From Octopus sinensis (lineage: Eukaryota), in NCBI RefSeq assembly GCF_006345805.1, contig NW_021834520.1, positions 1 to 47,500 on the forward strand: DNA of 47,500 nt, given 5' to 3'. Under the pieces are notes generated by a model. The model saw only the letters and a program-made list of their open reading frames with translations, had not been told where the DNA came from and made no database searches. Position numbers and translations under genes: made by a program. The stretch's first letter is position 1; each line of letters starts with the position of its first letter. This document shows positions 6,363 to 21,600 of the stretch, in pieces.

Positions 6363-7340
6363 CACATATATATATACACACATATATATATATATACATA
6401 TGTGTGTATGTATATATATATATATATACATACACACATATGTATATATATATATATTTATATATATATGTATATATACTGTGCGTGTTTTTGCATGTAT
6501 AGCTAGGGTACGTGTGTTATGCACATACATGTTTATAAACACTGTTGTACTGGACAGTTTTAATTTCTACTGCAACGGTGACTACTACTATAACAACAAC
6601 AACAACAACAATAATTCTTGTTGCATCATATCTTTCTATAACGACTAAACTATGCAATACCTTCGTCAACACATCTATACAATAAGAGAGTAGGGAAAAA
6701 ATTAGAGGAGAAAGAGAGAGAAAAGGAAAGGGTGAGAAAGTAGAGCAAAAGAAAGGATGAGATTAAAGTTAGTAAGTGGAAGGAATGGTGGGGAGAGTGA
6801 AAGAATTAGAAAAGAGAGAGAGTGAGTAGAATGATAGCAAAAGAAGTGAGAGAGGGGGAGAGAGAAAATGAAATAATTATAGAGAGTGGGAGTGGGAGTA
6901 TGAGAGAGAGAGAGGGAAAGAGTGTGTGTGTATGTGTGTGTGAGCGTGTGTGCGTGTCAATGTGTGTGCGTGTGTGAGAGAGAGAGATACAGAGAGCGAA
7001 GTGAAGTGAGAGAGAGAGAGATAGGCAGAGAGCGAAGCGAAGAGAGAGAGAGAGATATAGACAGAGAGGGAAGTGACGAGAGAGAGAGAGAAAGACACAG
7101 ATATAGGGAGGCAAAGAGAGAGAGAGAGCGCATATGTGTGTGTGTGTGTGTGTTTATTTAAAAGAGAATTAGGCAGTGGTATAGAAAAAGAGTGAGAGGA
7201 TGAGTAAATGGAAGAAAATATTAACAGAGAAAGAGAGGGAAAGAGTGAGGGTGAGAGTGAGATTTTGAAAGAGAAGGGGAAAAGGAAACATAATAAAAGC
7301 ATCAGAGTGAAGAGAGAAGGGGAGAGAAAGAGTAACATAC
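5250..7340. repeat. Compound (GA)n/(TA)n/(TG)n microsatellite field upstream of the CKI gene
   Basis: Directly visible. It is the source of the YIYI, SLSL and ERER pseudo-ORFs. Confidence 0.95.
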
Positions 7341-7381
7341 TAATAGAGAGGGGTAATGAAAATGATGGCACCACCCACAGT

Positions 7382-7480
7382 AGGCGTGGTTTACTGATTA
7401 AAATTTGAGGAACGCTCATCACAACATTTATTTCATACGTTGCTTCTCAGCGAAGAAGCTTGCCACGCAACGAGTACAAG
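7382..7480 (+). promoter_or_regulatory. Possible core promoter / non-coding first exon of the host CKI gene
   Basis: GC-box-like AGGCGTGG, then TTAAAA, then CpG-containing unique sequence directly after a long purine microsatellite. Weak donor AAG|GTAGAC at 7480/7481 and possible acceptor ttctcatag at 7718. Confidence 0.35.
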
Positions 7481-7787
7481 GTAGACAAGAATTATATATA
7501 AACATATACGCTAACAATTACGTACTAAATTTTACTATGTACTGCTAATGATTGGAACTATTTAACGTCAAATTTGTTAACCGAGGAAAAGGAATATATA
7601 CAATAAATATATATATGTATATTATATATATTTGAAAAAACACCAATCGTAATATATGTTCTACATACATGCATGTCTGAGCGTATGTTTACAAGTGAAA
7701 ACAGATAATTTCTCATAGATAGGATTTGATATCTATCTATATGGAAATTTTGACAACTTTATTTTTTTATTGGTGATTATTTAAACT

Positions 7788-9114
7788 ATGAAGCTAATGG
7801 AAGGCGAATGCATTTATACTCCGGCCAGACCTAGCGGTCAGTTTCCGACACCTAATCGCAGAATGCCACAAACTGTTATTAATACGGGCTCTAGCAGCGG
7901 GACCCGCATTGCTGCTCAAATTTTGGATCCTCGCCGTTTGTTAAAGGCTCGCCGAAAACTTTTCGATGGTGATTCTGAACCATCATCGGAACTGAATAAT
8001 CCATTTGGAAAGACGGCGGCGGCAGCGGCAGCTACAGAGAAGTCCGAAATCTGCCAACGATTATTAGAAGAATGCCAAAACAAATGGAACTTCGATTTGG
8101 TTAATTGTGTACCACTGGAAGGTCGTTACGAATGGGAAAAAATGGAACCAGAAAATGTACCAGGATTCTACTCGAGACCTTACACCAACCCCAAACGTCC
8201 TGTCCCAAACGTCCGAGAAAGTTATTCTCCAAATATGGTTGCCAATGGAAGTTACAGCAGAATACGATTCAGGGAAGACAGCCAGTCTAACGAAAGTACT
8301 TCTAGCTGCCCTCCTGGTATGGATGTTACAGTGCTTACTAAACTGAACAGCGGTAATAACGACAATAACAACAGAAACAACAACATAGCTACCAACAACA
8401 CTAAAGGTTGTGATCCCAATGATATTTATAATGTCCCTACTGCCTCTATCTCAACTTCTACTACGACTTGTGAACTGGAAAATACCAACGGTAAACAACA
8501 GGATATTACTGACGTGTGTAATGACAACCTAACACACAGCAGTACTTACTCTTGTAGTAATCGTAGTAGCAGTAGTACTAGTAGTAGTATTAGTAGTAGT
8601 AATAATAATAATATGGGTAGTAGTATATTGTCTACGACAAACCGACAGAGAGGTAAGTCACCTCTGTGTTTTTCAGCTTCTGTGAAAAACGTAAACACTA
8701 GTAACCTACATGGATCTCACGAACAAGACAGTAATAATGATGATAATATTAACAACAACAACAACAACAACAATAATAATGTTTTCTCTGGAAAGTCTGA
8801 CACTTGTGATACACTAACCAATAGACTCAGCGAACAGCTGGACAATAAGCAATGTTCGAATTTAACGGCAATCGATAAGGCCACCATTTCATTACCGTCA
8901 TTATCATCGTCATCATCATCATCGTCCCCTTCCTACTCTTCATCAGCACCATCATCACCATCATCTTTATCACCACCATCCTCATCACCACTATCCTCGT
9001 ATTCTTCTTCTACATTACCTGTATCATCATCATCATCATCGACAACAACAAAATCCTACTCTATGGAAACACTTAATGAGACGAAAACGTTGCCAAAACA
9101 AACCAAGATAGTCG
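7788..9114 (+). CDS. CDKN1-like: Cip/Kip-family cyclin-dependent kinase inhibitor (p27/p21/Dacapo-like), coding exon 1
   Basis: Contains the Cy motif ARRKLF and the CDI core KWNFDLVNCVPLEGRYEWEKMEPENVPGFYSRP (p27: RKWNFDFQNHKPLEGKYEWQEVEKGSLPEFYYRP). ATG has A at -3 and an in-frame TAA at 7782-7784. Consensus donor G|GTAAGT at 9114/9115 (phase 1). The rest of the exon is an Asn/Ser-rich low-complexity tail. Confidence 0.93.
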
Positions 9115-10380
9115 GTAAGTCGAATTTTTAATTTATTTAATTATTATTGTTGATGTTGATTATAATTTATGATAATTGCTTGTATTGTTAATTATATCGA
9201 CCTGAAGGGATAAAAATTCAAAATAAAATTGGCCAAAGTAAGATTTAAAACCAGAACGTAAAAAGTCCGGATAAGACACCGCAATGTATTTTGTCCGAGG
9301 TTCTTAGTGTAGATTCAATGCGTGAAAGTGTCCAGTGTTAGCTCATATATGCATGTAAATGTGTATATATTTGGTACTTGCGAATGTATATAAACAAACT
9401 CTTTCTAATTGTTCCTTGCCTTTTTTGAAACACGAAACACTTTGCAGTAAATTATTATTTTTCTATGTTACTAATCTACATACGCTTCAGACAGACACAC
9501 AGACAGACAAATAGATAGATAGATGATTGATAGATAGATAGATGATTGATAGATAGATAGATAGATGGATAGATAGATAGGGTTGTATTCCTCGTTTTGC
9601 TTCATCAATACCATACCCGCCCACTTTATATATAGATTCGTGTCATGGATTACCTATTACACACACAGGCGCACACCACCCTTCTCCGTGAAGGTGAAGG
9701 GAACAGTCCTTCCCTACACACCACCATCTGGTCAATCTGTTACAGTTCATGTACGATAGAACCGAAGGTCAATCGTTTTCGTTCAACCTACTCGATTATG
9801 ATTGATTGATATCTATCTCCCGATTTATTAATATCCTACCGTCCTAGAAAAAAAATTGAAGGGATTTATAAAAGAAAAAGAAAACAAAAACACATTGGAT
9901 TTTGTGTCGCAGTATGGCTGGTAGGTACACTTACGGAAAAGACAGACAGAATGGCCCCAGCTGCAGTAGTATCGTCGAGGAAATCCCGTTAGTAGAAAAT
10001 TAAAACATTGATGCCGTCTCGCGAAAATAACATCCTAGATGAAATAACTGAAAAAAAAAAATTGAAGCACCAATGTTACTGCTGGTGTGTAAGAACGTAA
10101 CCATTACTTTTTGCTTCTGTTGTTGTTGGCCCCTATTGTAATCGAGCAGACATTTAAGGCATTTTTCAAGGTGGTGTTTTTCAGAGTGGGGTTCCATCAA
10201 ATAATATATATATATTTTTTTTTAATGGAATCGAGCTCTTGGTTTTAATGAATTTCATTTTATAAATATGTATTTATTTTAAAATAAATTGCTAGTTGAC
10301 CTTTTCAAAATTATTATAAATTACACGAAATTTTCGCTTTTAGGAAATATATATATATATAGGCTTGTGTACACACACAC

Positions 10381-10423
<43 letters not shown>

Positions 10424-11031
10424 TACGTCCATACAGAGAACGAGAGATAATAGTTTTATTGATATTACATTGCCAGCCTCTGCGACCCACCTTCCAAAAT
10501 AGATGTGGGCTACAGCTATTTTCTGGGAAATATTCACAAGGGTTCCGTAACGAGCAAACTAGTTTAGGAACCGCTGCCTTTTAGGGTATTCTCCCACGTC
10601 TGACCAACTGACAACGTTCCTCCCTTTTCAACATTTTCTACAGCGGCAAAGTTGTGATTCGAAATAAACTTCATTGCTATTTCTGGAAGGTCAACCCTTC
10701 CACGTAGAGGTTCCTTCTTTGGCATTATATGTTTCAGGGAAAGGAGTAATGACTAGCTGTAGTACTGTTGTTTTTCCCCCCCACTTCTTTCTCGTTTCCT
10801 TATACCTCTTTTTCTCTTCCCCTCCCCACCGTTTCACTTACTTACAACACGCGCACACACACACACATTGTATTCTATGACATCTGATTGTGTGTGTGTG
10901 TGCTTGTGTACATTATTTCGTTATTGAAGATAGCATATATGAACGTAAAAACTATTTTAAAAAAAGCGATATATGCTATACACACATACACATACATATT
11001 GTGTTGTGTATATATATTTATGTTTATATAG

Positions 11032-11070
<39 letters not shown>

Positions 11071-12934
11071 CATACATACATATGATAGACTTAAATGCAA
11101 AACATTTTGTGTATATACAGATTACAACTATTAGAGTTGATTATGCGTGTGTGTATGTGTATAGATACACACACACATAGATAGATAGATAGATAGAAAT
11201 TTGAATGCAAAACTGTGTGTATACAGATTACAATTTGTGTTGATTATGCGTGTTCATATATATATATATATATATGTCAAATAGAGGCTTGAGTGCAAAA
11301 AAATTGTGTTACAGATTACAAACATACATACATACGGGCCCCGCCTTTTATCGAGCTAACAATTAATTGTACATTCTCGGGGCCTACGATTAATTATATA
11401 ATAATTATGCACACGTATACACGCAAACAAAAATTGCATATATTGTTTGTGTGTGTGTTTGTGCATGCATTCATGTATGTATGTTAATGTTCGCAGTTAT
11501 GGAAGTAATTAGTCATATATAGAGAGAGATAGAGAGATAGTCATATATATATAGATAGATACACACACGCACACACATAAATACATTTTGTGTGTATGTT
11601 TGTATGTACTGTCACACACACACACACACACACGTACGCACACACACGCTACATTTTCTCTTCCACCCAAGGTTACTTTTTTTCTGTGTCATCCAGGCTT
11701 TACAACTACAACTCGCTGTGTGCACTATTCGTATAGTAAACATTGTAGTAGCATAGAGTAGTATACACACACACATTTATTCACGATCAAGTATCGTAAA
11801 GTTGTGTGTGTGTATATATATATTACTAATGATATTAGTAATAATTGCTGATTATAATTATTTCAAAACCTTTTTTTTTTTTTCGACTGATAACGTCTTT
11901 TTATAGTCTCTATAGTAAATATTGCTAGCGAGTAGATATTTTTTTAGATATTTTTTTTTTTTGCTTTTTTATTGATCGATAGAAACCTAATATCCAAATT
12001 TCATCAATAATCCTTATAGATTTTAAAAAGGAAAATAGATTTGCGTTCATTATTATTTTTGTTAAAAGAATACTAAACTTAAGAAAAAATACCGAAATTT
12101 GGGCTGCTTATTATTTTGTGATGTTTTGCGTACTTTAACTACTACTAAAAGTTTTTCTTAGTTTCAACTACTACTACTACTTCTACTACTCGCATCTATA
12201 TGCGTGTGTAATAATATATGTAAGAAAATCGTTTATGTTAAGAAATTTACTAAGTGCTACAACGTTGTCGTATTGGATTTTGTGTTTACAAGACCGAGGG
12301 GTGGGGAGCAGCATCCCAATATTCACAGTAGTAGTTGTATTTTTTTTCCCCTAGTTCTAGACATAGACACGCTGTGAAAATGGGAGCTTTTTGGATAGGT
12401 ACAACTCCTCTCTCGTCGATATCAATGTTGAAATTATTTAAAAAATTTTAAAGCTATCTTGATTATTAATAATAACTGCAAATATTTTTATGCTATGCAT
12501 GTAGTTTTATTACTAAAGTATGCATGCAATCTGTATGCGCATGCATATTCTGCACACACACACACACACACACACTCTGTACGTATACACTCAAAATCTG
12601 CAAGTGCGTGCTTAATATGCATGGTATGCGCGCACTATTTGCTAACACTATAATTATTGTGCGATACGTAGAATGCATTAATTGCAATAAGCAGAGAAGC
12701 AATATAACGAATATATATGTATGTAAAAATTAGAACTGGAATGGGATATTGCAGTAAGAAACTACAGAATATATATGGCGTCTATATAAATGCAAGGAAT
12801 TAGAGAGGAAGGGAGTAAAATGTGGATTAAGTTTGTTGTAGAGTGCCCGAGAGTGTGTGTGTGTAATGTCGAAAGAAAACGACAGAGTAGAATTGTAAAG
12901 GGGGTAAATGCGAGAGAGTAAGAGTGCGACTGAC

Positions 12935-13030
12935 TGACGTATCGTGTTAGACGCTAGTGCGTGATGGGCGGAGCTTATTTGGCTTGACTTATAAATACTG
13001 AGCGAGCGCCCAGCCTGTACTATTTAGTGA
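12935..13030 (+). promoter_or_regulatory. Putative core promoter of the nested CKI gene
   Basis: CRE-like TGACGT (12935-12940), GC box GGGCGGAG (12966-12973), TATAAATA (12990-12997) and Inr-like TTAGT (13024-13028), in a locally CpG-rich stretch about 660 nt upstream of the ATG. Confidence 0.6.
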
Positions 13031-13685
13031 CTTGTTCTCAAGCAGACTACTGCTCTTGCGACCCGTTATGAGCGTCACAGTCGAGACGAATTTAACGTTA
13101 CTATTACTACTATCATCAATATTGCAATCGTCATCTTCACTTCGACTGTTGAACAACCTAACTGAAGGGAAACTAATGACTCTCAGTTTCTTTAAAGTTT
13201 TTGAGAAACTAAAACGGAATACTTATTCGTGTTCGGCAAGCGATTTTAAGAATATAAGGCGTTAGTAAATAATTCTATATGCCACCGTGGATTCCTTACC
13301 ACAGTCGTCACATCATTAAACAGATACATCATCACATCTAATTTACAACACGAATTTTCATCGAAATTTCTTTTATTTCTGAAAACGATCGAACTACTAT
13401 TAACGAGAAAATCACGGAAAAAAAAAAAGGAAATTATTCGGAAGATTATCTTTCTCTCATTCTCACGCATTCTATGACTCATACACATACACTGTGTTTA
13501 TAACAATACACACACCTACTGAATCACAATTAACAGTACAACTTCGATTATTTTTATTTTCTCAAACTTTTTTACAAAACGGAACGGATATAAAAAGCGA
13601 CTAAATTTAGATTTGGATTTTTTTGTTGTTGTAGTCAACAATTTTCCATCATTATTAGGATTTTTAAAAGAAAAAATATTCCAAG

Positions 13686-14351
13686 ATGTCAAAGGTAGCA
13701 GTAAAACGCCCAGCTCAGTATTGCTTAACGTTCGACGATGACAACTGCAGACCGAAGCGCTTTGACAGTAATATTGCGACGGAGAGAGACACTGGTCGAC
13801 AATATGAGCAAGATTTTAACAACAACATTTACAAAAAAGCTCTCGAAGATTTGATAGTTGCGGAGCTCAAAAAGAAACTCGAAGAGGAGGCACGCCGTTT
13901 TAAAAAGAAGTGGAACTATGATTTAACAGATCAAAAATTCCTGTCTGGTGACTATTGTTGGGAAGCAAAATCTGCCAAGTCCTTTCCAATATCTTACGCT
14001 AAGCATTGTTTTTATTCGTACTACGGAGCTCAGCCGCTGTACCTGAACAGTGATGAGTCGGGGGTGGAACCTGACTGCAATTCAAAATCTTATGACAACA
14101 ACGATAGCGGAACTGTTACACCACAACAAACTACAACTGTTACTACTACTGATGTACTATCATCGAACGACGAAATAGCAACAGAAACATTAACAAATAC
14201 TAATGATACTCGCTCAATTGGAAATCCTGTAACTACTATTTGTAACGAAAACGCGGAAAACGCTGATGGCTCCTTACGCTTAATACCTATAATTTGTTAC
14301 AAACCCAGGGATTCAGAAGGCGATATTCTTGATCGTCAAAGGCCAAACTGA
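13686..14351 (+). CDS. Nested, divergent Cip/Kip-like CDI-domain protein (221 aa) with an uninterrupted ORF
   Basis: Non-repetitive 666-nt ORF. ATG has A at -3 and an in-frame TAA at 13665-13667. CDI core LEEEARRFKKKWNYDLTDQKFLSGDYCWEAKSAKSFPISY matches the KWN[FY]D..L.G.Y.W....P..Y pattern. Thr/Asn/Asp-rich tail. Confidence 0.85.
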   Translation: MSKVAVKRPAQYCLTFDDDNCRPKRFDSNIATERDTGRQYEQDFNNNIYKKALEDLIVAELKKKLEEEARRFKKKWNYDLTDQKFLSGDYCWEAKSAKSFPISYAKHCFYSYYGAQPLYLNSDESGVEPDCNSKSYDNNDSGTVTPQQTTTVTTTDVLSSNDEIATETLTNTNDTRSIGNPVTTICNENAENADGSLRLIPIICYKPRDSEGDILDRQRPN

Positions 14352-14600
14352 GAAGCTTGAACATAAGTTGTATTTCAACAAATTCTGTCCTGCTGAACAT
14401 ATTCTTGATATATATATATATATGTGTGTATATATATATATACCGTCCACTGAAGAATCTGTCACACACACCTTTGTCCCTACCTCTTCGATTCGCCACC
14501 GCTATCACGTTTCAAATTGTATTTATTTCTATTTATTGATCATCATACAGCTATCATGCCTGAACTTTATCCAATTTTGTTTTCTTCGATGAAAAAGTTC

Positions 14601-14620
14601 ATATTTATTTAATTTATTTC
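14601..14620 (+). promoter_or_regulatory. AU-rich element cluster in the putative 3' UTR of the nested gene
   Basis: Three clustered ATTTA pentamers in atatttatttaatttatttc, 250 nt after the stop. The AT-rich background weakens significance. Confidence 0.3.
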
Positions 14621-16699
14621 TGAATAACTTTAAGAGAGAGAGAAAAAAAAACTCTTTGGACTTATTTTTGGGCGAAATTCCACCCGCCTTTTCTGGAAAG
14701 CCTTCCACGATCTCAAAAACAAAAAAAAAGTAACTTGATGATGTGAGGGTGGCTAAGCTTGTTTTGTCTTCTTACCGCTTTCCCCCGCTTCCTTCTTTCC
14801 TATGTGTGTAACTCGTTCGCTCCTTTTCTATAATATTGTGATAATGAGTTCAAAAGTGATCGTGTACGAACAGTTTATATAACCCGTTATCATAACTGCT
14901 CGATGTTGGCAGCAGGATTTATATCCGACTCACAAAATATACATCAAAATTGATCTCGTTTAAATAGAAAGAAACAAGACGAAACAAAACAAAAAAAAGG
15001 GCAACAAAACTTCGCTTGATTATAAATTAAATATGCAGCACAGAAAGAAAAAATGCTTAAGGATAAAAACCTCCGACGAGGCTGCATATTATTCTGATCT
15101 CGAGACTGCAATGTATAAAAATTGTCATTTACTAAAAAAAAAAGAAATGATCGAAGTAAAAGATTCCCAACGGTTAGTATGTAATTATGTTTAAGTACTA
15201 ACGCGCATGACTGCTGAAATTAACAATATTCTCACTCTGACACACACACTCACACACCCCTTTTACTCTGTGTATGTAAGCAAAAACATGGGTTGTTCAG
15301 CAAGTTGGTAGAAAAGTGTCTTATTAAAACGTCTCTTCGTATATAGATTTGCAACTATTTAGTCTTAAAATATAACTACATGATTAGGTTTTTACTCCTC
15401 AATTTTCTTTTGATAGTTGCGACCTCGTCTTTTCGATTACCACCGCCAGCCTGTTATTGGGTACCAAATACATATTTTCTCAGTTGATGCAATTTACATT
15501 ATTATACAAATAATAACGGGTTTAGATACACTTCTTCCAACTAAAATACATTAATCACATCACAAATAAGCATGTATGTCTTTTTAACATCTTGTTTTGC
15601 CGATTGTGTATCTTGTTTTGCCGATTGCGTGTCTCTCTCAAAATTTCTTTAGTCTATAAAATATTGCAAATGTTTCTTAAATTTCTAGATTTTCGTTCGG
15701 AACTACTACTTATTGTTTTTTTCATTTTTATATATGGATATTGTTTGCTTTATTGCTTTCTAAAAAAACAATTAGTCTAACGGTAGTATAGTAACAATCT
15801 GTCTAATCTTCAAAAAACAAAACTGCTTTTTCTGAAACTTTTCGATAATTACAAATGCCAGAAAATGTTCGTAACCAGAATGTTTAACGCGAGAGAGAGA
15901 GAGAGATGTGCGTGTGTGTAAAGACAACAGATTTGGAGGGAGGCGGGGGCTTAATGTCAGTTGACAGCAACGTACTTCCTTGTAACTAATTTAAAGGGGT
16001 CAGACCTTGTTATATATATAGTTTTACTCTGATTCTATACGAGTTTACCCTTTTTAAAAATACAAGTCGTCTGTGGAATACTCGGCCACTTGCACTACTG
16101 TTATATAATTGAGTACGTTCAATTTGTTCGAACAACTGGAATGCTTCATCATCGAAACTGATGACAATAACTACATCCATCATACATACCCCTTAAATTG
16201 ATATTTTAGCAACAGTAATAGTTGCTATTGTGGTGTGGGAAGCTGTCTGTGTGTGCCTGTGCGTAGTTTTCCAGACCTTGCCTCCTTTCCTTGTGCACAT
16301 TGTGTGTGTGTGTGCGCGCCTCACACACACACACACACACGCACTACATAATAAACACACATCTGGAACCGATGGAGGTTGTGATGAAGTAATCAGGCTT
16401 ATAGTAACTGTGTGTACTAAACGTGATTTGAGGAGGGAGGGAAAATTTGTATTACGAATTTTGTTGAATTTAAAGAGTTTTTAGTACGTCAACTACTTTA
16501 TATTACATGTTCAACATAATATTGTGTTCTTTAAAGGCATTGCAAAACAACAAATTAATACCTTTTATGACAGATTTTATCAATATGTGAAATACGTGTT
16601 ACGTGTTTGTATCTATCGTCACAGCTCGTCCTATCGAGGTTATTTATTGGAATCGATGAAATTCCTTTTAAAAATATGAAGCCTTGTGCTTAAATTGGA

Positions 16700-16915
16700 A
16701 ACTTATTGTTAACACAATTGTTAAACCGTCGGACAAAGATATTTAGAAGCATTTCGACTTATTTTTACGATTCTGAGTTCAAATCCCGCCGAAGTTGTTG
16801 ACATTTTATCCTTTCGAAGTCGGTGAAATAAAGTAGTGGTACCAAACAAACACCCAATTCATGTAGTAGTAAATCGACCTTCCTCTAAATTTCTGGCCTT
16901 GTACCCAAACTTGTA
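16700..16915 (+). mobile_element. Degenerate SINE family B copy in the host intron
   Basis: ttctgagttcaaatcccgccgaagttgttgacattttatcctttcgaagtcggtgaaataaagta...ctggccttgtacccaaa. Confidence 0.7.
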
Positions 16916-17244
16916 AACCTCAGTTGTATATGATGATGTGATGCGTTAGTCATCATTATAACCAGGCTCGTTCCCCATATCCCTCCAATTCTTTCGCAGC
17001 GTGGATATATAATCCTAAATGCGCGCGCGCTTCTTTTCTCTCTATCTCTTCTCTTCTGTTGTTAATCCAAACAATTCCCCTTCCCTTTCCCGAAACAAAA
17101 AAGAATTTTGTATTGTGTAACAAAATAATTTCATTATTATTATTATTATTATAAAAAAATATTGTAATCCAATAATCTTGATTTATTTTACTGCAAGTTT
17201 AGAATAAAAATTAAAAGTAGACACTTTTTTTTACTTTTTTGCAG

Positions 17245-17321
17245 ATTTTATGCCACACAGAAAGCGAACGCTATCTTATTGCCACACTGGAAACAGAGAA
17301 AAAAAATTAAGGAAAGAATAA
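17245..17321 (+). CDS. CDKN1-like: Host CKI coding exon 2 (second half of PIP box/degron plus basic NLS-like C-terminus)
   Basis: In frame with exon 1 it reads (D)FMPHRKRTLSYCHTGNREKKLRKE*, with TAA at 17319-17321. The junction QTKIVDFMPHRKR resembles Dacapo QPKITEFMKERKR and p21 QTSMTDFYHSKRR. Total CDS is 1404 nt (467 aa). Confidence 0.85.
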
Positions 17322-17355
17322 AAAGAATCAACCCCATATTGCTGTAACAATCAAC

Positions 17356-18645
17356 GTGAGTTTTGTTTTTGTTTAAAAAAGCATTCAACTTCTTTTAGCT
17401 GCTTTGCTCGAAGATCTCCGAGGGATGCGATAATCTTAGTTTAGTTATCTCCCTTGGTATTAATGTGTGTGTGCGTGCTTCATATTATAATATTTCGTGT
17501 GTAGAATAGATGTACGACTGCTTTAGAGCCACGTAAAATTGTCTCCCGTCTGCTTCCAGCGTAGTGTTTTTTTTTTAGCTACGACTAAATTCTGGATGTA
17601 CAGAGCAAAATATAGGAGAAATTACGATAAACATAAGCTCAAGTTTATTATATATCCTTTGTTCTTTCGACGTTTCACCGTTGAACTCTTCATTTTGCTC
17701 TTCCGGGGGAGGGCACTTTATTTGTTATTATTACATTATGTTTATGGCCGACACTTAGAAATAAAAATGCTTGTATAATATAAACTATCATAATACGGAC
17801 TAATTAGATCCAGCAAGTACTCGCACGAAGGAATCCTCGTAAAAGCGTGAATGCTCAAATCCCGTATGAAATGTCGTTATCGCGAGACTTTTTATGTAGT
17901 CTTTTATTATCTCCCTTACTTTTCCAGAAAGTTATTTTTTCTACTAATTTCTGATTAATGTATAAATGCATATTGTATTGTTTTGTGTTGTATAAATATA
18001 GTATATAGTGTAGTGCGTGAATTATATTATGAGAAAGAAATGCACATAGGTACAATATATGTCGATGCAAAATCTAACGCCATAGGTTTTTTTTTTTTTT
18101 TACATATATAGTTAGTCTCAAAGTAAAATAATAAATAGTACGTATCGTTTTTCTCTCGATTATAAACTATAAGATCTCGATTCGGAGATCTTTTAGAAAT
18201 TAATCTAGAGAGATCGTATAATAACAGTCTACATTATAATAGAGTTCATATTATATAATATATAGATTTATTTTGCTATGAGGTTGTACAGGTGGGAAAA
18301 CATCCCATGTTTTCAGTTTTCCTAGTCAATTTAGTTACGGCATACCTATACTATACAACTAACCGTTTTCTCCCCGCAAACGATCCAACTTCATTTCCGG
18401 CCAACTCTCAGAAAAATGAATATTTTTTTTTCAATTAAAATTTTCCGTGAAGACGCTTCAGATTGTATAGATTTGAGATTGTATTGGACTTTGCAGGGCG
18501 GGGACGACACTTGTGTAATATGTGTATGCCTTGGTTACCTAGTAAAATGATTCCTATTATATATAGTATGTCTGTCTTAATTAATTACCTTTAAATTTTG
18601 CATTTTTAAATATTTATTTTATTTCTATATTTTTTTTTATTGCAG
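17356..18645 (+). other. Probable 3'-UTR intron of the host CKI gene
   Basis: Donor AAC|GTGAGT 34 nt after the stop. Acceptor ttttttttattgcag ending at 18645, with an alternative cacag at 18656. Confidence 0.6.
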
Positions 18646-21600
18646 TTATTTCACAGAATGAACTCACTCAAGCAATAAATAAAAGAATACGTATATACAA
18701 GGACACTTCGTGACAAAATGAAATGGTCGCATCGTGAAGAATTTTCAAATACAAACAAGACTATAATTTATATATGTATATATATATATAATATTAATAT
18801 CTTGGTTGAGAAACCAGACTGTTCTTTCCACTCTATGGTGCTTTTATGGCAGCACAAAAAAGTTACTGATGATGACATTAAAATACATATGTAATTTTAA
18901 AGGCTGCGAAGAGACTGAAATAAGAATGCTGGAAGAAAAAGCAAAATTTATTCAACTCAACTCCTATAGCTGGAAAAAACATTCACCCCCACCCCCCTCT
19001 TGGGAGAAGTGTGATTCCTTTGCAGAGAAATGCTTGAGAAAAAGCTATTTAGAATAATTGAGTGAAATCATCTATTATCTCTGAGTTTAAAAAACCCTTT
19101 TTGGCATTGAAATTATTCTGTCAAATATATAATACTTCAATAATATTCATTGTTTTGAATTAATCATGTATATTATCTCGTAAGGTTTTCAATGATGTTC
19201 GTTTATTTTAAAGAATGACATTGTAGGATTGGTGTAAATGGCCTGACCTGGCTAATTTGAATGAACACACGGAAGAATAATTTGAGCCAGATATGTCTGA
19301 TTCAAATGCTAAAAAGGGTTAAGGAATCGTAAGGCACTTGCATCATTTCCCCTCACATCCAGTCTTTTGTGGTTTTTATAAAGATCTCTCTCTACATTGA
19401 TTTATTAATTTAAAATATTGAACTGGAGGTTTAGGTTCAAAGAATATATATTATTATTAGATATAGGAGAGTATGAGAGTTTGTGCGTGTGTGTATATGA
19501 GTGTGAAATTTTCATTCAACTGTTGCATTCCTTTTTTTTTTTTTATGAAATGACAAAAATCAATCACATCATTAAATTTATATTTTTATATTTAAATATC
19601 ATTCTTATATAAAAAACAATAATTGAAAAAAAAAAAAGTTAAGGTAGAAAGAACAATTCAATCTTAATGTGATAATATTTTGCTGTTGCAGAAATCACTT
19701 CAGGGAATCAATGTATGTTTTTTTATACCAATATAATAATGATAAATAATTAAAATTTAATCAGTTTGTTATGAAGAAGAAAATCTGCAAACATCAAAAG
19801 TAGTGTTTAAAAGAAGCTTATGTGTTGTGTAGTAATTCTGATTAAAAAACAAAGAAATTAAGTTAGCTAAGTTAGCTTAACGGTCCAGCATTGAACAATA
19901 TAAAAATATTTTTCCACTGCTCGATGTACGATTTGCTGGGACCAAGAAGGAATCATTATTTTTAATTAACTTTTTCAACTTAAACCCCCCCCCCCATACA
20001 TGGTAATTAAATCTTGCTGCTAAAAGAATCTCCATTTGAAAATTGGAAGAAAATCTTGAATAGATTTTTTTCCTCACCTCTTGAAAAATTTTTGTCTTTA
20101 GCTAGTTTTTTTTTTTTTTTTTTTTTTTCCAATATTGTAGCATTTGTGTATGTGTGTGTCTGTGTAACACAGTAGGCAGCATATCTAGTTTGACTGCAAC
20201 AGGATGTGAGTGTGAATGGGAAACTGTATCATTCAAAATATTAGTTTTAAGTGTGAATAGAAAAAAGCGAAGTATTATAAAGCATTTAAGAAGCTGCTTG
20301 CTGCAGAATTTACATTGCTTCTAATGAATGTGGTACACAAAAATGAATCATGATTATTAGAATTGTATTATTTATTTTTCACAGATTCTTTTCAAAATTC
20401 TCTTTCATAAATGATTATCATTTTCAAAGGTACATATAATTATTATTATTTATATATTTAAAAACAGAAAAATTAACATTAAAAATGAGTTAGAAATAGA
20501 CAAAAAAAAATATATTTTTCAATGAATCTAATTAATATTATATTTATAGATTGAGTATTCTTAAAAATTCTGTGATAAGGCTTAAGTGATCTCGAGAATC
20601 TTATTATGATTGATCCCATTAAATTTAAACAGTTGGATCAGTGTGATGTTTGAAAAGGAAAATTGTGTTTGCATATTATACATATATATTATATACATGT
20701 GTATGTAATATATATATATATATATATATAGTGTGTGTGTGTGGTTATGTACATATTATTACTGCTGCCAATATGTTTTTTTGCTCCATTTCATTATTTA
20801 TTTAATATGCTCATAGAAAAAATTCTTTTGGTTAGATAAATATAAAATGAATGGATTCTTTTTGCTTTTCCAAATGTGCATAGAATATATGTACTGTGCA
20901 AAATTTCTATCATACAGAGAAAAGAAAAACTTCATAATTTAAATTCTCTTTGTAATAATAATAATAATAATAATAATGATGATGATAGCTTTGACTTAAT
21001 AAGTGAACAAGATATGTAAAGAAGATAATGACTTAATAAGTGAACAAGATATGTAAAGAAGATAATGACTCATTTTTCATTAACTATACATATAATTAAT
21101 ATACAACAAATTTTGATGCAATTAAACAGGTTTTTTCCAGCAGTAAGTTAGTTTTTAGATTTAAATACTTTTTTTTTTTTTTACAAGTAGCATCATCTTG
21201 GCAGCAGTATTTTTTACATCGTTAGCTTTTAGTAATGGGGGTAAATTATTAAAATAGTTTTAAATATTTTGACAAATGCAATTTTTTTATTATATAATAA
21301 TAAATGCTGCTGTTTATTTTTGTTCTTTGAGCCTTACATGTTCAATTTGACTTAATGTGTGAACTCGTGAAGATTTGATCTCCATCTTAAGAAAATCTTA
21401 TGAGCTTTACAAAAAATATGAAAATATATTTTTCTTTGTTGAATTATTTTATTTATGCATGTGAAAAATAATGAACATATTGTACATAATTTATATTTTC
21501 AATTTCTCATTTAATGGATAGAAAAAAACTAAAAGAAAACTCAACAACAGTAAAAATACATACTACATACACTTACTTATCAGTCACATCAGAATGTTGA

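What the first reader, a model, noticed from the sequence alone, without database searches (positions are those of the whole stretch)
13686..14351. Inner paralogue looks rewired: degenerate cyclin-docking motif, longer linker, no PIP degron
Seen: the host has ARRKLF (RxLF Cy motif), whereas the inner protein has KRPAQYCLTF at the equivalent N-terminal position, lacking the Arg of RxL. About 59 residues separate that Phe from the WNYD Trp, versus about 40 in the host and about 26 in p27. The CDK-binding motif is retained (WNYDL...LSGDYCW). The ATP-pocket helix reads FPISY, keeping the Y88-equivalent but replacing the F87-equivalent with Ser. The C-terminus has no QxxhxxFF-like PIP box or basic cluster. 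Known: RxL docks on the cyclin hydrophobic patch, and the PIP degron drives CRL4-Cdt2 destruction in S phase. Inference: an S-phase-stable inhibitor for lasting cell-cycle exit or endocycles, a CDK-only binder or assembly factor, or a decoy of the host.
Basis: partly seen in the sequence, partly recalled or inferred. Interest (0 to 1): 0.75.

Follow-up and report, generated by a model that had tools for sequence, protein, structure and literature searches.

The report
One octopus locus, two CDK inhibitors
An octopus p27-like cell-cycle inhibitor locus makes a second, shorter reading frame on an internal exon that splices onto the main gene's last exons; its protein lacks the S-phase destruction tag and has a conserved, altered cyclin-docking motif that is predicted to favour mitotic and D-type cyclins over cyclin E.

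Summary
The sequence observations hold: Y[C/R]LTF replaces RxLF, the linker is 59 residues (host 40, p27 26), the CDK-binding core is kept, and no PIP box is present. Two readings change. (1) It is not a free-standing nested gene. In 4 of 4 transcript-like assemblies the inner unit splices 15172→17245 onto the host's last two exons. It is likely a duplicated first exon with its own promoter. Its stop lies 821 nt before the shared exon that carries the second half of the host's PIP degron, which explains the missing degron. (2) The motif is not decayed. Residues 1-16 are the best-conserved block between Octopus and Argonauta (15-16 of 16 identical, about 46% elsewhere). They fit the atypical LxF docking class; 5 of 7 human LxF peptides bound cyclin B1 and none cyclin E. 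A cyclin A complex prediction gave weak support only. Best reading: a Cdt2-insensitive Cip/Kip variant with likely shifted cyclin preference. Translation, binding and stability are untested, and the mRNA has NMD-like geometry. The protein is in RefSeq as uncharacterised and in one published CKI tree. New variant of a known kind; interest 0.5.

The parts
7417..9114 (+). Host first exon (exon A): 5' UTR plus codons 1-442 of the 467-aa CKI; ATG at 7788; ends in a phase-1 donor CG|GTAAGT
   Evidence: Contigs begin at 7417-7448 (a true start cannot be shown by contigs) and join 9114->17245 in 4 of 4 runs; the spliced translation equals P0005
7950..7964 (+). Host canonical cyclin-docking motif RRKLF (residues 55-59)
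8034..8141 (+). Host CDI domain match
9099..9114 (+). First half of the host PIP-like box (QTKIV), cut by the intron
12935..12997 (+). Likely inner promoter: TGACGT (12935), GC box GGGCGG (12966), TATAAAT (12990)
   Evidence: Pattern matches only. One contig starts at 13018, the others at 12891, 12916 and 13097. Promoter function is inferred.
13018..15172 (+). Inner first exon (exon B): about 670-nt leader with 4 upstream ATGs, the whole 221-codon ORF, and 821 nt of 3' UTR; donor CG|GTTAGT
   Evidence: contigs to 14397 and 14449-15172 in 4 of 4 runs, broken only at a dinucleotide repeat. The 5' end is approximate.
13686..14351 (+). Inner ORF, 221 aa, CDI-domain protein (same letters, by eye, as XP_036355746.1 / LOC118761713 printed in Table S7 of PMC12693960)
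13710..13742 (+). Conserved atypical LxF-type motif PAQY[C/R]LTFDDD (P-4 Ala, P-2 Tyr, acidic flank)
   Evidence: class described in PMC12356897
13860..13964 (+). Inner CDI match: end of the linker helix and the CDK-binding segment WNYDL..GDYCW
13983..14024 (+). Region equivalent to the p27 3-10 helix, FPISYAKHCFYSYY, with two possible registers (S103-Y104 or F109-Y110)
17245..17355 (+). Shared exon: codes DFMPHRKR (second half of the PIP-like degron) and the stop (17321) for the host; pure 3' UTR for the inner transcript
   Evidence: both joints, 4 of 4 runs
18646..19300 (+). Shared last exon (3' UTR); continues beyond the stretch that was laid
   Evidence: joint 17355->18646 GT..AG in 4 of 4 runs

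Best explanation
The inner unit is an internal first exon, likely a duplicate of the host's, that holds a complete 221-codon CDI-domain reading frame and splices onto the host's last two exons as 3' UTR, so its protein has no PIP degron and would escape CRL4-Cdt2, while likely still gripping CDKs through WNYD..Y.W and likely docking on cyclins through a conserved non-canonical LxF motif predicted to favour cyclins B, A and D over cyclin E. Shown: the ORF, the shared splice acceptor, the stop 821 nt before the junction, the missing degron and RxL arginine, and conservation of the N-terminal motif and CDK-binding block in three octopod proteins. Inferred: origin by exon-plus-promoter duplication, translation, CDK and cyclin binding, cyclin preference and stability. 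The likely role is a separately switched, S-phase-tolerant brake on G2/M (and possibly D-type) CDKs beside a conventional S-phase-degraded host inhibitor. Rough odds per step: shared-exon architecture 0.9; functional CDK-binding protein 0.75; LTF docks on the cyclin patch 0.55; cyclin E is relatively spared 0.35.
For: Joints 9114->17245, 15172->17245 and 17355->18646, all GT..AG, in 4 of 4 runs from 4 studies and 2 organism codes; no joint from 9114 into the inner exon is listed. Both donors read CG|GT[A/T]AGT. Only 2 CDI matches in the genome, both in this window. CDI over the Pfam cut-off in 3 of 3 orthologues. Block identity to Argonauta: residues 1-16 15/16, 65-99 28/35, 100-120 16/21, against 10/39 in the linker and 28/80 in the tail. 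In Table S7 of PMC12693960, read by eye, 20 of 21 spiralian CKIs have [RK]xL(x)F and the inner protein is the one exception; a Helobdella CKI reads VCRRLTFDSD, the same LTFD core with Arg at P-2. In PMC12356897, LxF motifs without a P-2 basic residue bind cyclins; Ala is favoured at P-4; acidic C-flanks suit D and B cyclins. Of 7 LxF-type peptides, 5 bound B1, 2 bound D1, 1 bound A2, 2 bound only F, 0 bound E1 or E2. Complex prediction, inner 1-45 with octopus cyclin A (P0007, O. bimaculoides): weak support, score 0.45, best of 3 controls 0.00, contact agreement at least 56%, partner pLDDT at least 48; at 0.60 or under the mark was reached by only 5 of 78 solved complexes and by all 4 mismatches that passed, and like complexes (p27-cyclin A) are solved, so the pass may be from memory.
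Against: No protein-level or binding data. No Tyr-at-P-2 variant could be checked: the full mutational-scan files of PMC12356897 were too large to read. All 5 cyclin-B1-binding LxF peptides have Lys or Arg at P-1, whereas this species has Cys. The cyclin preferences come from human cyclins and free peptides, not from a motif tethered to a CDK-binding domain. The inner N-terminus aligns without gaps better to the host's Met4-Arg25 (Met-anchored p 0.003, anywhere p 0.05; above all 116 control N-termini) than to RRKLF, which would mean that the Cy segment was deleted; free local alignment supports neither register (p 0.5-0.7). No DNA-level similarity between the two exons beyond low-complexity matches, so duplication rests on protein domain, position and donor. 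The mRNA has two junctions downstream of its stop and 4 upstream ATGs. The runs are contigs whose RNA nature is guessed, no single contig spans ORF to donor (break at a dinucleotide repeat), the two joints into 17245 have 29 letters on the short side, and no DNA-run control was obtained. The complex job gave no interface, so it does not show that LTF is the contact.
Confidence: 0.5

Rival explanations
1. CDK-only binder or decoy: the host's RxL segment was deleted in the duplicate, and the conserved N-terminus descends from the host's own N-terminus and serves something else (nuclear import through VKRP, or PP1 docking through RLTF).
For: The best gapless register of inner 1-22 on the host is Met4-Arg25, score 15 against negative scores for the RRKLF registers; it beats 116 of 116 control N-termini and 634 of 634 Met-anchored windows. 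RLTF matches a PP1 RVxF-like pattern (pattern recalled) in 2 of 3 orthologues.
Against: Local alignment is not significant in any register. A leech CKI has RRLTFD as its Cy motif. The window's species has Cys for Arg, which breaks the PP1 pattern. The motif has the P-4, LxF and acidic features of cyclin-docking peptides.
Confidence: 0.17
2. Ordinary broad inhibitor: avidity from the CDK-binding segment makes up for the lost arginine, so the protein inhibits the same complexes as the host and differs only in promoter and turnover.
For: CDK-binding block, Y74- and Y88-equivalents are kept. Linker length and the F87 position vary among spiralian CKIs: 43 residues in a leech protein; at least 6 of the other 20 lack Phe there (by eye).
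Against: Tyr at P-2 is fixed in 3 of 3 orthologues while 20 of 21 listed spiralian CKIs keep Arg or Lys, which points to selection for a different property.
Confidence: 0.17
3. Cyclin D-CDK4/6 specialist (assembly factor or stand-in for the missing INK4 inhibitor).
For: Ala at P-4 and an acidic flank suit cyclin D1; the closest LxF peptide (PKN2 QxLxF) bound D1, A2 and B1 but not E. Cdkn2/INK4 was not found in 2 of 2 coleoids but was found in Nautilus (PMC11555623 passages). p27 assembles cyclin D-CDK4 through the patch (bioRxiv 2026.01.14.699544 passages).
Against: Only 2 of 7 LxF peptides bound D1 against 5 of 7 for B1. Bivalves also lack Cdkn2, and the bivalve CKIs keep a canonical RxLF. 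No cyclin D test was run here.
Confidence: 0.1
4. Little or no protein: the transcript is an NMD-sensitive or translationally repressed isoform whose role is regulatory.
For: Stop 821 nt upstream of the first of two downstream junctions, whereas the host stop is 34 nt from the last junction; 4 upstream ATGs, one opening 65 codons.
Against: The frame is intact, with strongly uneven motif-centred conservation, in three octopod proteins down to 51% identity. Spliced contigs occur in 4 of 4 runs. The junction-based mode of NMD is uncharacterised or absent in many lineages (PMC6173133 passage).
Confidence: 0.06

Closest known systems
Cip/Kip inhibitors p27Kip1/p21Cip1 (Pfam CDI PF02234; PDB 1JSU, 6P8E-H)
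   Same: CDI match over cut-off; WN[FY]D..G.Y.W segment, Y74- and Y88-equivalents align with p27; predicted linker helix and an otherwise low-confidence model.
   Different: No RxL arginine; type-2 LxF spacing; 59-61-residue spacer against 26; variable F87 position plus a second FY; the only S/T-P site is absent from one orthologue.
PIP-degron CKIs: p21, Drosophila Dacapo, most spiralian CKIs and the host of this locus
   Same: Same locus and shared terminal exons; the host has Q..I..FM followed by RKR; 18 of 21 spiralian CKIs show such a tail (by eye).
   Different: The inner ORF stops before the exon that carries the degron's second half. The two other PIP-less entries end near QTL/QTI and may be models that lack the last exon (inference).
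Atypical LxF cyclin-docking motifs (PKN2 QxLxF/TxLxF, DNAH7, DBF4, CDC42EP1; PMC12356897)
   Same: LxF core, no basic residue at P-2, acidic residue after the Phe, basic P-1 in two of three orthologues, small non-polar P-4.
   Different: Those sit in human proteins other than CKIs and were tested as free peptides; none has Tyr at P-2; here the motif is coupled to a CDK-binding domain.
Loci with alternative first exons and shared 3' exons (CDKN2A INK4a/ARF, UGT1A, clustered protocadherins; recalled, no call)
   Same: Two first exons, likely separately promoted, splice to common downstream exons.
   Different: Here both first exons code for the same domain family, and the shared exons are coding for one product and untranslated for the other.
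Mitosis-selective CDK inhibitors such as Drosophila Roughex and plant SIAMESE (recalled, no call)
   Same: Only the predicted function: restraint of mitotic CDKs while cyclin E-type activity is spared.
   Different: Unrelated in sequence as far as recalled; the function is not shown for the octopus protein.

Membership tests
CDI-domain proteins (Pfam PF02234) | Score above the curated cut-off (25 bits) | tested here: met
   30.5, 26.6 and 28.7 bits for the three orthologues; 10 of 10 best named Atlas hits share the family
Canonical Cip/Kip inhibitor | N-terminal [RK]xL(x)F cyclin-docking motif | tested here: not met
   Tyr at P-2 in 3 of 3 orthologues; no match upstream of the CDI. Filed therefore as a Cip/Kip-derived variant, not as a canonical member.
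Canonical Cip/Kip inhibitor | CDK-binding segment WN[FY]D[FL]..G.Y.W | tested here: met
Canonical Cip/Kip inhibitor | Linker helix between the cyclin and CDK sites | tested here: inconclusive
   Helix 40-76 in an AlphaFold2 model of mean pLDDT 33, three sequences only
Canonical Cip/Kip inhibitor | 3-10 helix with F87-Y88 in the ATP pocket | tested here: inconclusive
   Y kept; F87 position is Ser, Phe, Ser; a second conserved FY lies 6 residues on
Canonical Cip/Kip inhibitor | Binds and inhibits cyclin-CDK | not testable with these tools
   No assay; only a weak cyclin A prediction without CDK
PIP-degron CKIs (p21/Dacapo type) | C-terminal PIP box with basic residue at +4 | tested here: not met
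   No strict or relaxed match in 3 of 3 inner orthologues; met by the host
Atypical LxF cyclin-docking motif | LxF core without P-2 basic residue, small non-polar P-4, acidic C-flank | tested here: met
   PAQY[C/R]LTF[D/S][D/E]D against the rules in PMC12356897 sections 12 and 15
Atypical LxF cyclin-docking motif | Basic residue at P-1, as in 5 of 5 cyclin-B1-binding examples | tested here: inconclusive
   Arg in 2 of 3 orthologues, Cys in the window's species
Atypical LxF cyclin-docking motif | Binding to the cyclin hydrophobic patch | tested here: inconclusive
   Weak support, 0.45 against 0.00 for the best control, no interface given
Independent nested (intronic) gene | All exons lie inside the host intron, none shared | tested here: not met
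   Splices to the host exons at 17245 and 18646 in 4 of 4 runs

The most novel reading that the evidence does not exclude
A Cip/Kip inhibitor re-aimed at mitotic CDKs: one Arg-to-Tyr change in the docking motif plus loss of the Cdt2 degron yields an S-phase-stable inhibitor that blocks cyclin B/A-CDK1 but spares cyclin E-CDK2. Octopods would then have, from a second promoter in the same gene, a switch for G2 arrest or endocycles that works like Roughex or SIAMESE, with its dose tuned by upstream ORFs and 3'-UTR introns.
Probability: 0.18. Interest if true: 0.8.

Novelty: new variant of a known kind. Interest (0 to 1): 0.5.

Why it matters
If true, one locus would deliver two inhibitors with different degrons and cyclin preferences from two promoters and one shared 3' end, an economical way to separate 'brake removed in S phase' from 'brake kept'. 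It would be a natural case of the recently described non-canonical LxF docking code being used to retune a Cip/Kip protein. It would also give a marker and a testable lever for cell-cycle exit in octopus neurogenesis and regeneration, in a lineage reported to lack INK4 inhibitors. For annotation, it matters that two gene ids here share exons, so read counts on the common 3' end cannot tell the two products apart.

Tried and rejected
Search for more orthologues: 3 of 295 candidates with the inner protein; 2 hits among 1.84 billion representatives with the 3-sequence profile. The host search returned 1 of 120 candidates and missed even an Argonauta host, so the lack of squid, cuttlefish or Nautilus hits is no evidence of absence. 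No RNA holder was listed as RNA on record; the four runs laid are guessed RNA or unlabelled. A DNA-run control for the joints was not obtained. Contig depth was not used to rank the two isoforms. Further paralogues in the genome: none; the best outside match (E 0.03) is a stop-ridden non-coding frame. In-frame splicing of the inner ORF to the PIP exon: no joint from inside the ORF is listed, and all three frames from the 15172 donor lie far behind the stop. DNA similarity of host and inner exons: not above shuffles apart from low-complexity matches. Tail similarity host/inner: p 0.27, 0.41 and 0.017. AlphaFold2 monomer: pLDDT 33, not sent to a fold search. No Rfam match in 7000-20500. The 5' leader folds no better than shuffles (z 0.42). 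The bacterial promoter scan does not apply. Earlier findings of this scan: none by place, sequence or words. PMC87195 (p21 Cy-motif mutagenesis) was not held. Cyclin B, D, E and CDK complexes were not predicted.

Full report
Setting. The window is a whole 47.5-kb contig of a 2.7-Gb genome with two CDI matches, both in this window. The first, at 8034-8141, belongs to a 467-aa protein; splicing 9114 to 17245 gives exactly P0005, which the collection labels XP_029656860.1, Octopus sinensis. The second is the finding: an ORF at 13686-14351, 221 aa, Pfam CDI 30.5 bits against a cut-off of 25. By eye it is the sequence printed as XP_036355746.1, 'uncharacterized protein LOC118761713', in Table S7 of PMC12693960.

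Check of the observation. The motif KRPAQYCLTF, the spacings 59, 40 and 26, the CDK-binding segment, Ser at the F87 position with Tyr at Y88, and the lack of a PIP box or C-terminal basic cluster are all in the sequence. The host has RRKLF and QTKIVDFMPHRKR, the latter cut by the 8130-nt intron in which the inner ORF lies.

Architecture. Contigs of four runs (4 studies, 2 organism codes; RNA nature guessed or unlabelled) were laid on 7300-19300. All four show three GT..AG joints: 9114 to 17245, 15172 to 17245, and 17355 to 18646. So the inner unit uses the host's acceptor and both terminal exons. No joint from the host donor into the inner exon, and none from inside the inner ORF, is listed. 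Inner contigs begin at 12891-13097, around a GC box (12966) and TATAAAT (12990). The simplest reading is a second first exon with its own promoter. Its stop lies 821 nt before the donor, so the exon that gives the host DFMPHRKR is untranslated in the inner mRNA; this is why the degron is missing. Limits: contigs cannot show starts; none spans ORF to donor, because all break at a dinucleotide repeat (14398-14448); the two joints into 17245 have 29 letters on the short side; no DNA-run control was obtained; the splicing was not tested in more distant octopods; RefSeq's exon model of LOC118761713 was not visible to me and may already hold the shared exons. Origin by duplication is inferred from the shared domain (12 of 40 identical around the Trp), tandem position, and matching donors CG|GTAAGT and CG|GTTAGT. 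No significant DNA similarity remains outside low-complexity sequence.

Conservation. Two orthologues were found among 295 candidates: P0002 (83%, unnamed assembly) and P0003 (51%, Argonauta hians). A profile of the three found only P0001 and P0003 among 1.84 billion representatives. The host search found 1 of 120 candidates, so coverage of cephalopods is thin and the range is unknown. Against Argonauta, residues 1-16 are 15/16 identical (P0002 16/16; chance about 0.001 over all windows at the 46% background), 65-99 are 28/35, 100-120 are 16/21, the linker 26-64 is 10/39 and the tail 121-200 is 28/80. All three end in QRPN with no PIP match. This pattern is what a selected protein looks like, and it makes 'degenerate' the wrong word for the N-terminus. 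The orthologues read YRLTF; this species has Cys (TGC) for Arg.

What the motif is. In Table S7 of PMC12693960 (21 spiralian CKIs, read by eye) 20 have [RK]xL(x)F and the inner protein is the exception; a Helobdella CKI has VCRRLTFDSD with a 43-residue spacer, and Lingula has RRLDF. PMC12356897 (outline, sections 10, 12, 13, 15, passages, and rows of two supplementary tables) shows that LxF motifs lacking the P-2 basic residue can bind the hydrophobic patch, that cyclin E1 tolerates the loss worst, that Ala at P-4 and acidic C-flanks are favoured, and that of 7 LxF-type peptides 5 bound B1, 2 D1, 1 A2, 2 only F and none E. The inner motif has these features, except Cys at P-1 in this species and an untested Tyr at P-2; the full scan files were too large to read. 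Against this reading, inner residues 1-22 align without gaps best to the host's Met4-Arg25 (Met-anchored p 0.003, anywhere p 0.05; above 116 of 116 control N-termini), which would mean deletion of the host-type Cy segment; free local alignment favours neither register. RLTF also fits a recalled PP1-docking pattern, but this species' Cys breaks it.

Complex prediction. Inner 1-45 with the cyclin box of octopus cyclin A (P0007, whose patch-helix exon is identical to this genome's) scored 0.45 against 0.00 for the best of 3 controls; runs agreed in at least 56% of contacts and the partner's pLDDT was at least 48. The tool calls this weak: the mark was reached by 51 of 78 solved and 2 of 108 mismatched pairs, but at 0.60 or under by only 5 of the 78 and by all 4 passing mismatches; peptides are untested; p27-cyclin A is solved, so memory may explain it; no interface was given. 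It moves my odds only slightly.

The 3-10 region. The F87 position is Ser, Phe, Ser in the three orthologues, and a conserved CFYSYY six residues on resembles the host's GFYS. At least 6 of the other 20 spiralian CKIs lack Phe there (by eye). The substitution is therefore not a reliable sign of lost inhibition. The monomer model shows one long helix (40-76) at very low confidence.

How it likely works. Shown: two reading frames, shared 3' exons, degron present in one product only, fixed Tyr at P-2. Inferred: the inner protein binds CDK through its conserved core and cyclins through LxF, with reduced grip on cyclin E, and is not removed by CRL4-Cdt2. Dacapo is destroyed in S phase through its PIP degron and excess Dacapo blocks endocycles (PMC5586379 passages), so a stable broad inhibitor would stop cycling; only a cyclin-E-sparing one would allow G2 arrest or endocycles. 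Stability is not assured, since Skp2-type turnover exists (PMC6170502 passages; PMC3667721 search listing only); the single TP site is absent from P0002. The mRNA has four upstream ATGs and two junctions behind its stop, so output may be damped; whether junction-based NMD works in molluscs did not complete by my search (listing; PMC6173133 passages). Coleoids were reported to lack Cdkn2 (PMC11555623 passages and supplement rows; 5 of 17 supplementary files not searched), which keeps a cyclin D-CDK4/6 role open (bioRxiv 10.64898/2026.01.14.699544 passages).

Novelty. Both proteins are database entries and both are in the CKI tree of PMC12693960 (passages and supplement), whose main-text passages say only that the O. 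sinensis sequences group with CDKN1B. Searches for octopus CKIs, for alternative first exons with CKIs in octopus and for the locus id in main texts (0 papers) listed nothing on the shared exons or the motif; subscription papers are not covered. PMC3973624 (passages) was read for an invertebrate CKI comparison and added only that RXLF is the marked cyclin-binding motif. Each part has a precedent (paralogous CKIs, PIP-less p27, alternative first exons, LxF docking), but the combination is unusual. Verdict: real feature, new variant of a known kind, interest 0.5; 0.8 if mitotic-CDK selectivity is shown.

Noticed in passing
L003, L004, L006, L007, L008, L014 (G000 contigs C10954, C12468, C12461, C12597, C8703): At least six near-identical cyclin-box reading frames with the N-terminal box in one exon; their patch helix reads CYARAKLI[H/Q]WL in place of MR.IL.DWL (Cyclin_N about 104 bits for the two scanned). 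A recently expanded, divergent cyclin family; one copy (L014) is split over two frames.
   Followed up: partly
G000:C8:7904203-7959142 and G000:C4:67756225-67894653: Tandem clusters of weak Cyclin_N matches in long open frames: 6 on C8 and 5 on C4.
   Followed up: no
window 8025-8087 (host residues 67-100): The host has a second LF-like site, ELNNPFG, at exactly p27's spacing (26) from the Trp, 14 residues after RRKLF; the O. vulgaris protein has Ser for that Phe, so it is probably not needed.
   Followed up: partly
window 16483-17245: A minor GT..AG joint from 16483 to the shared acceptor in 1 of 4 runs, on a low-depth contig covering 15495-16483: a longer 3' UTR variant or a third upstream exon.
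   Followed up: no
window 7417-7787 and 13018-13685: Both leaders are rich in upstream ATGs: 8 short uORFs for the host, 4 for the inner exon, one of 65 codons.
   Followed up: no
window 17321-17355: The host stop lies 34 nt before a 3' UTR intron (17356-18645), within the distance usually taken to escape junction-based NMD (rule recalled), while the inner stop does not.
   Followed up: partly
window 14270-14351 (inner residues 196-221): The inner C-terminus has a moderately conserved block LIPI.C[YF]K..D.E.DI...QRPN (12 of 21 identical in all three) with no counterpart recognised in the host; function unexplained.
   Followed up: no
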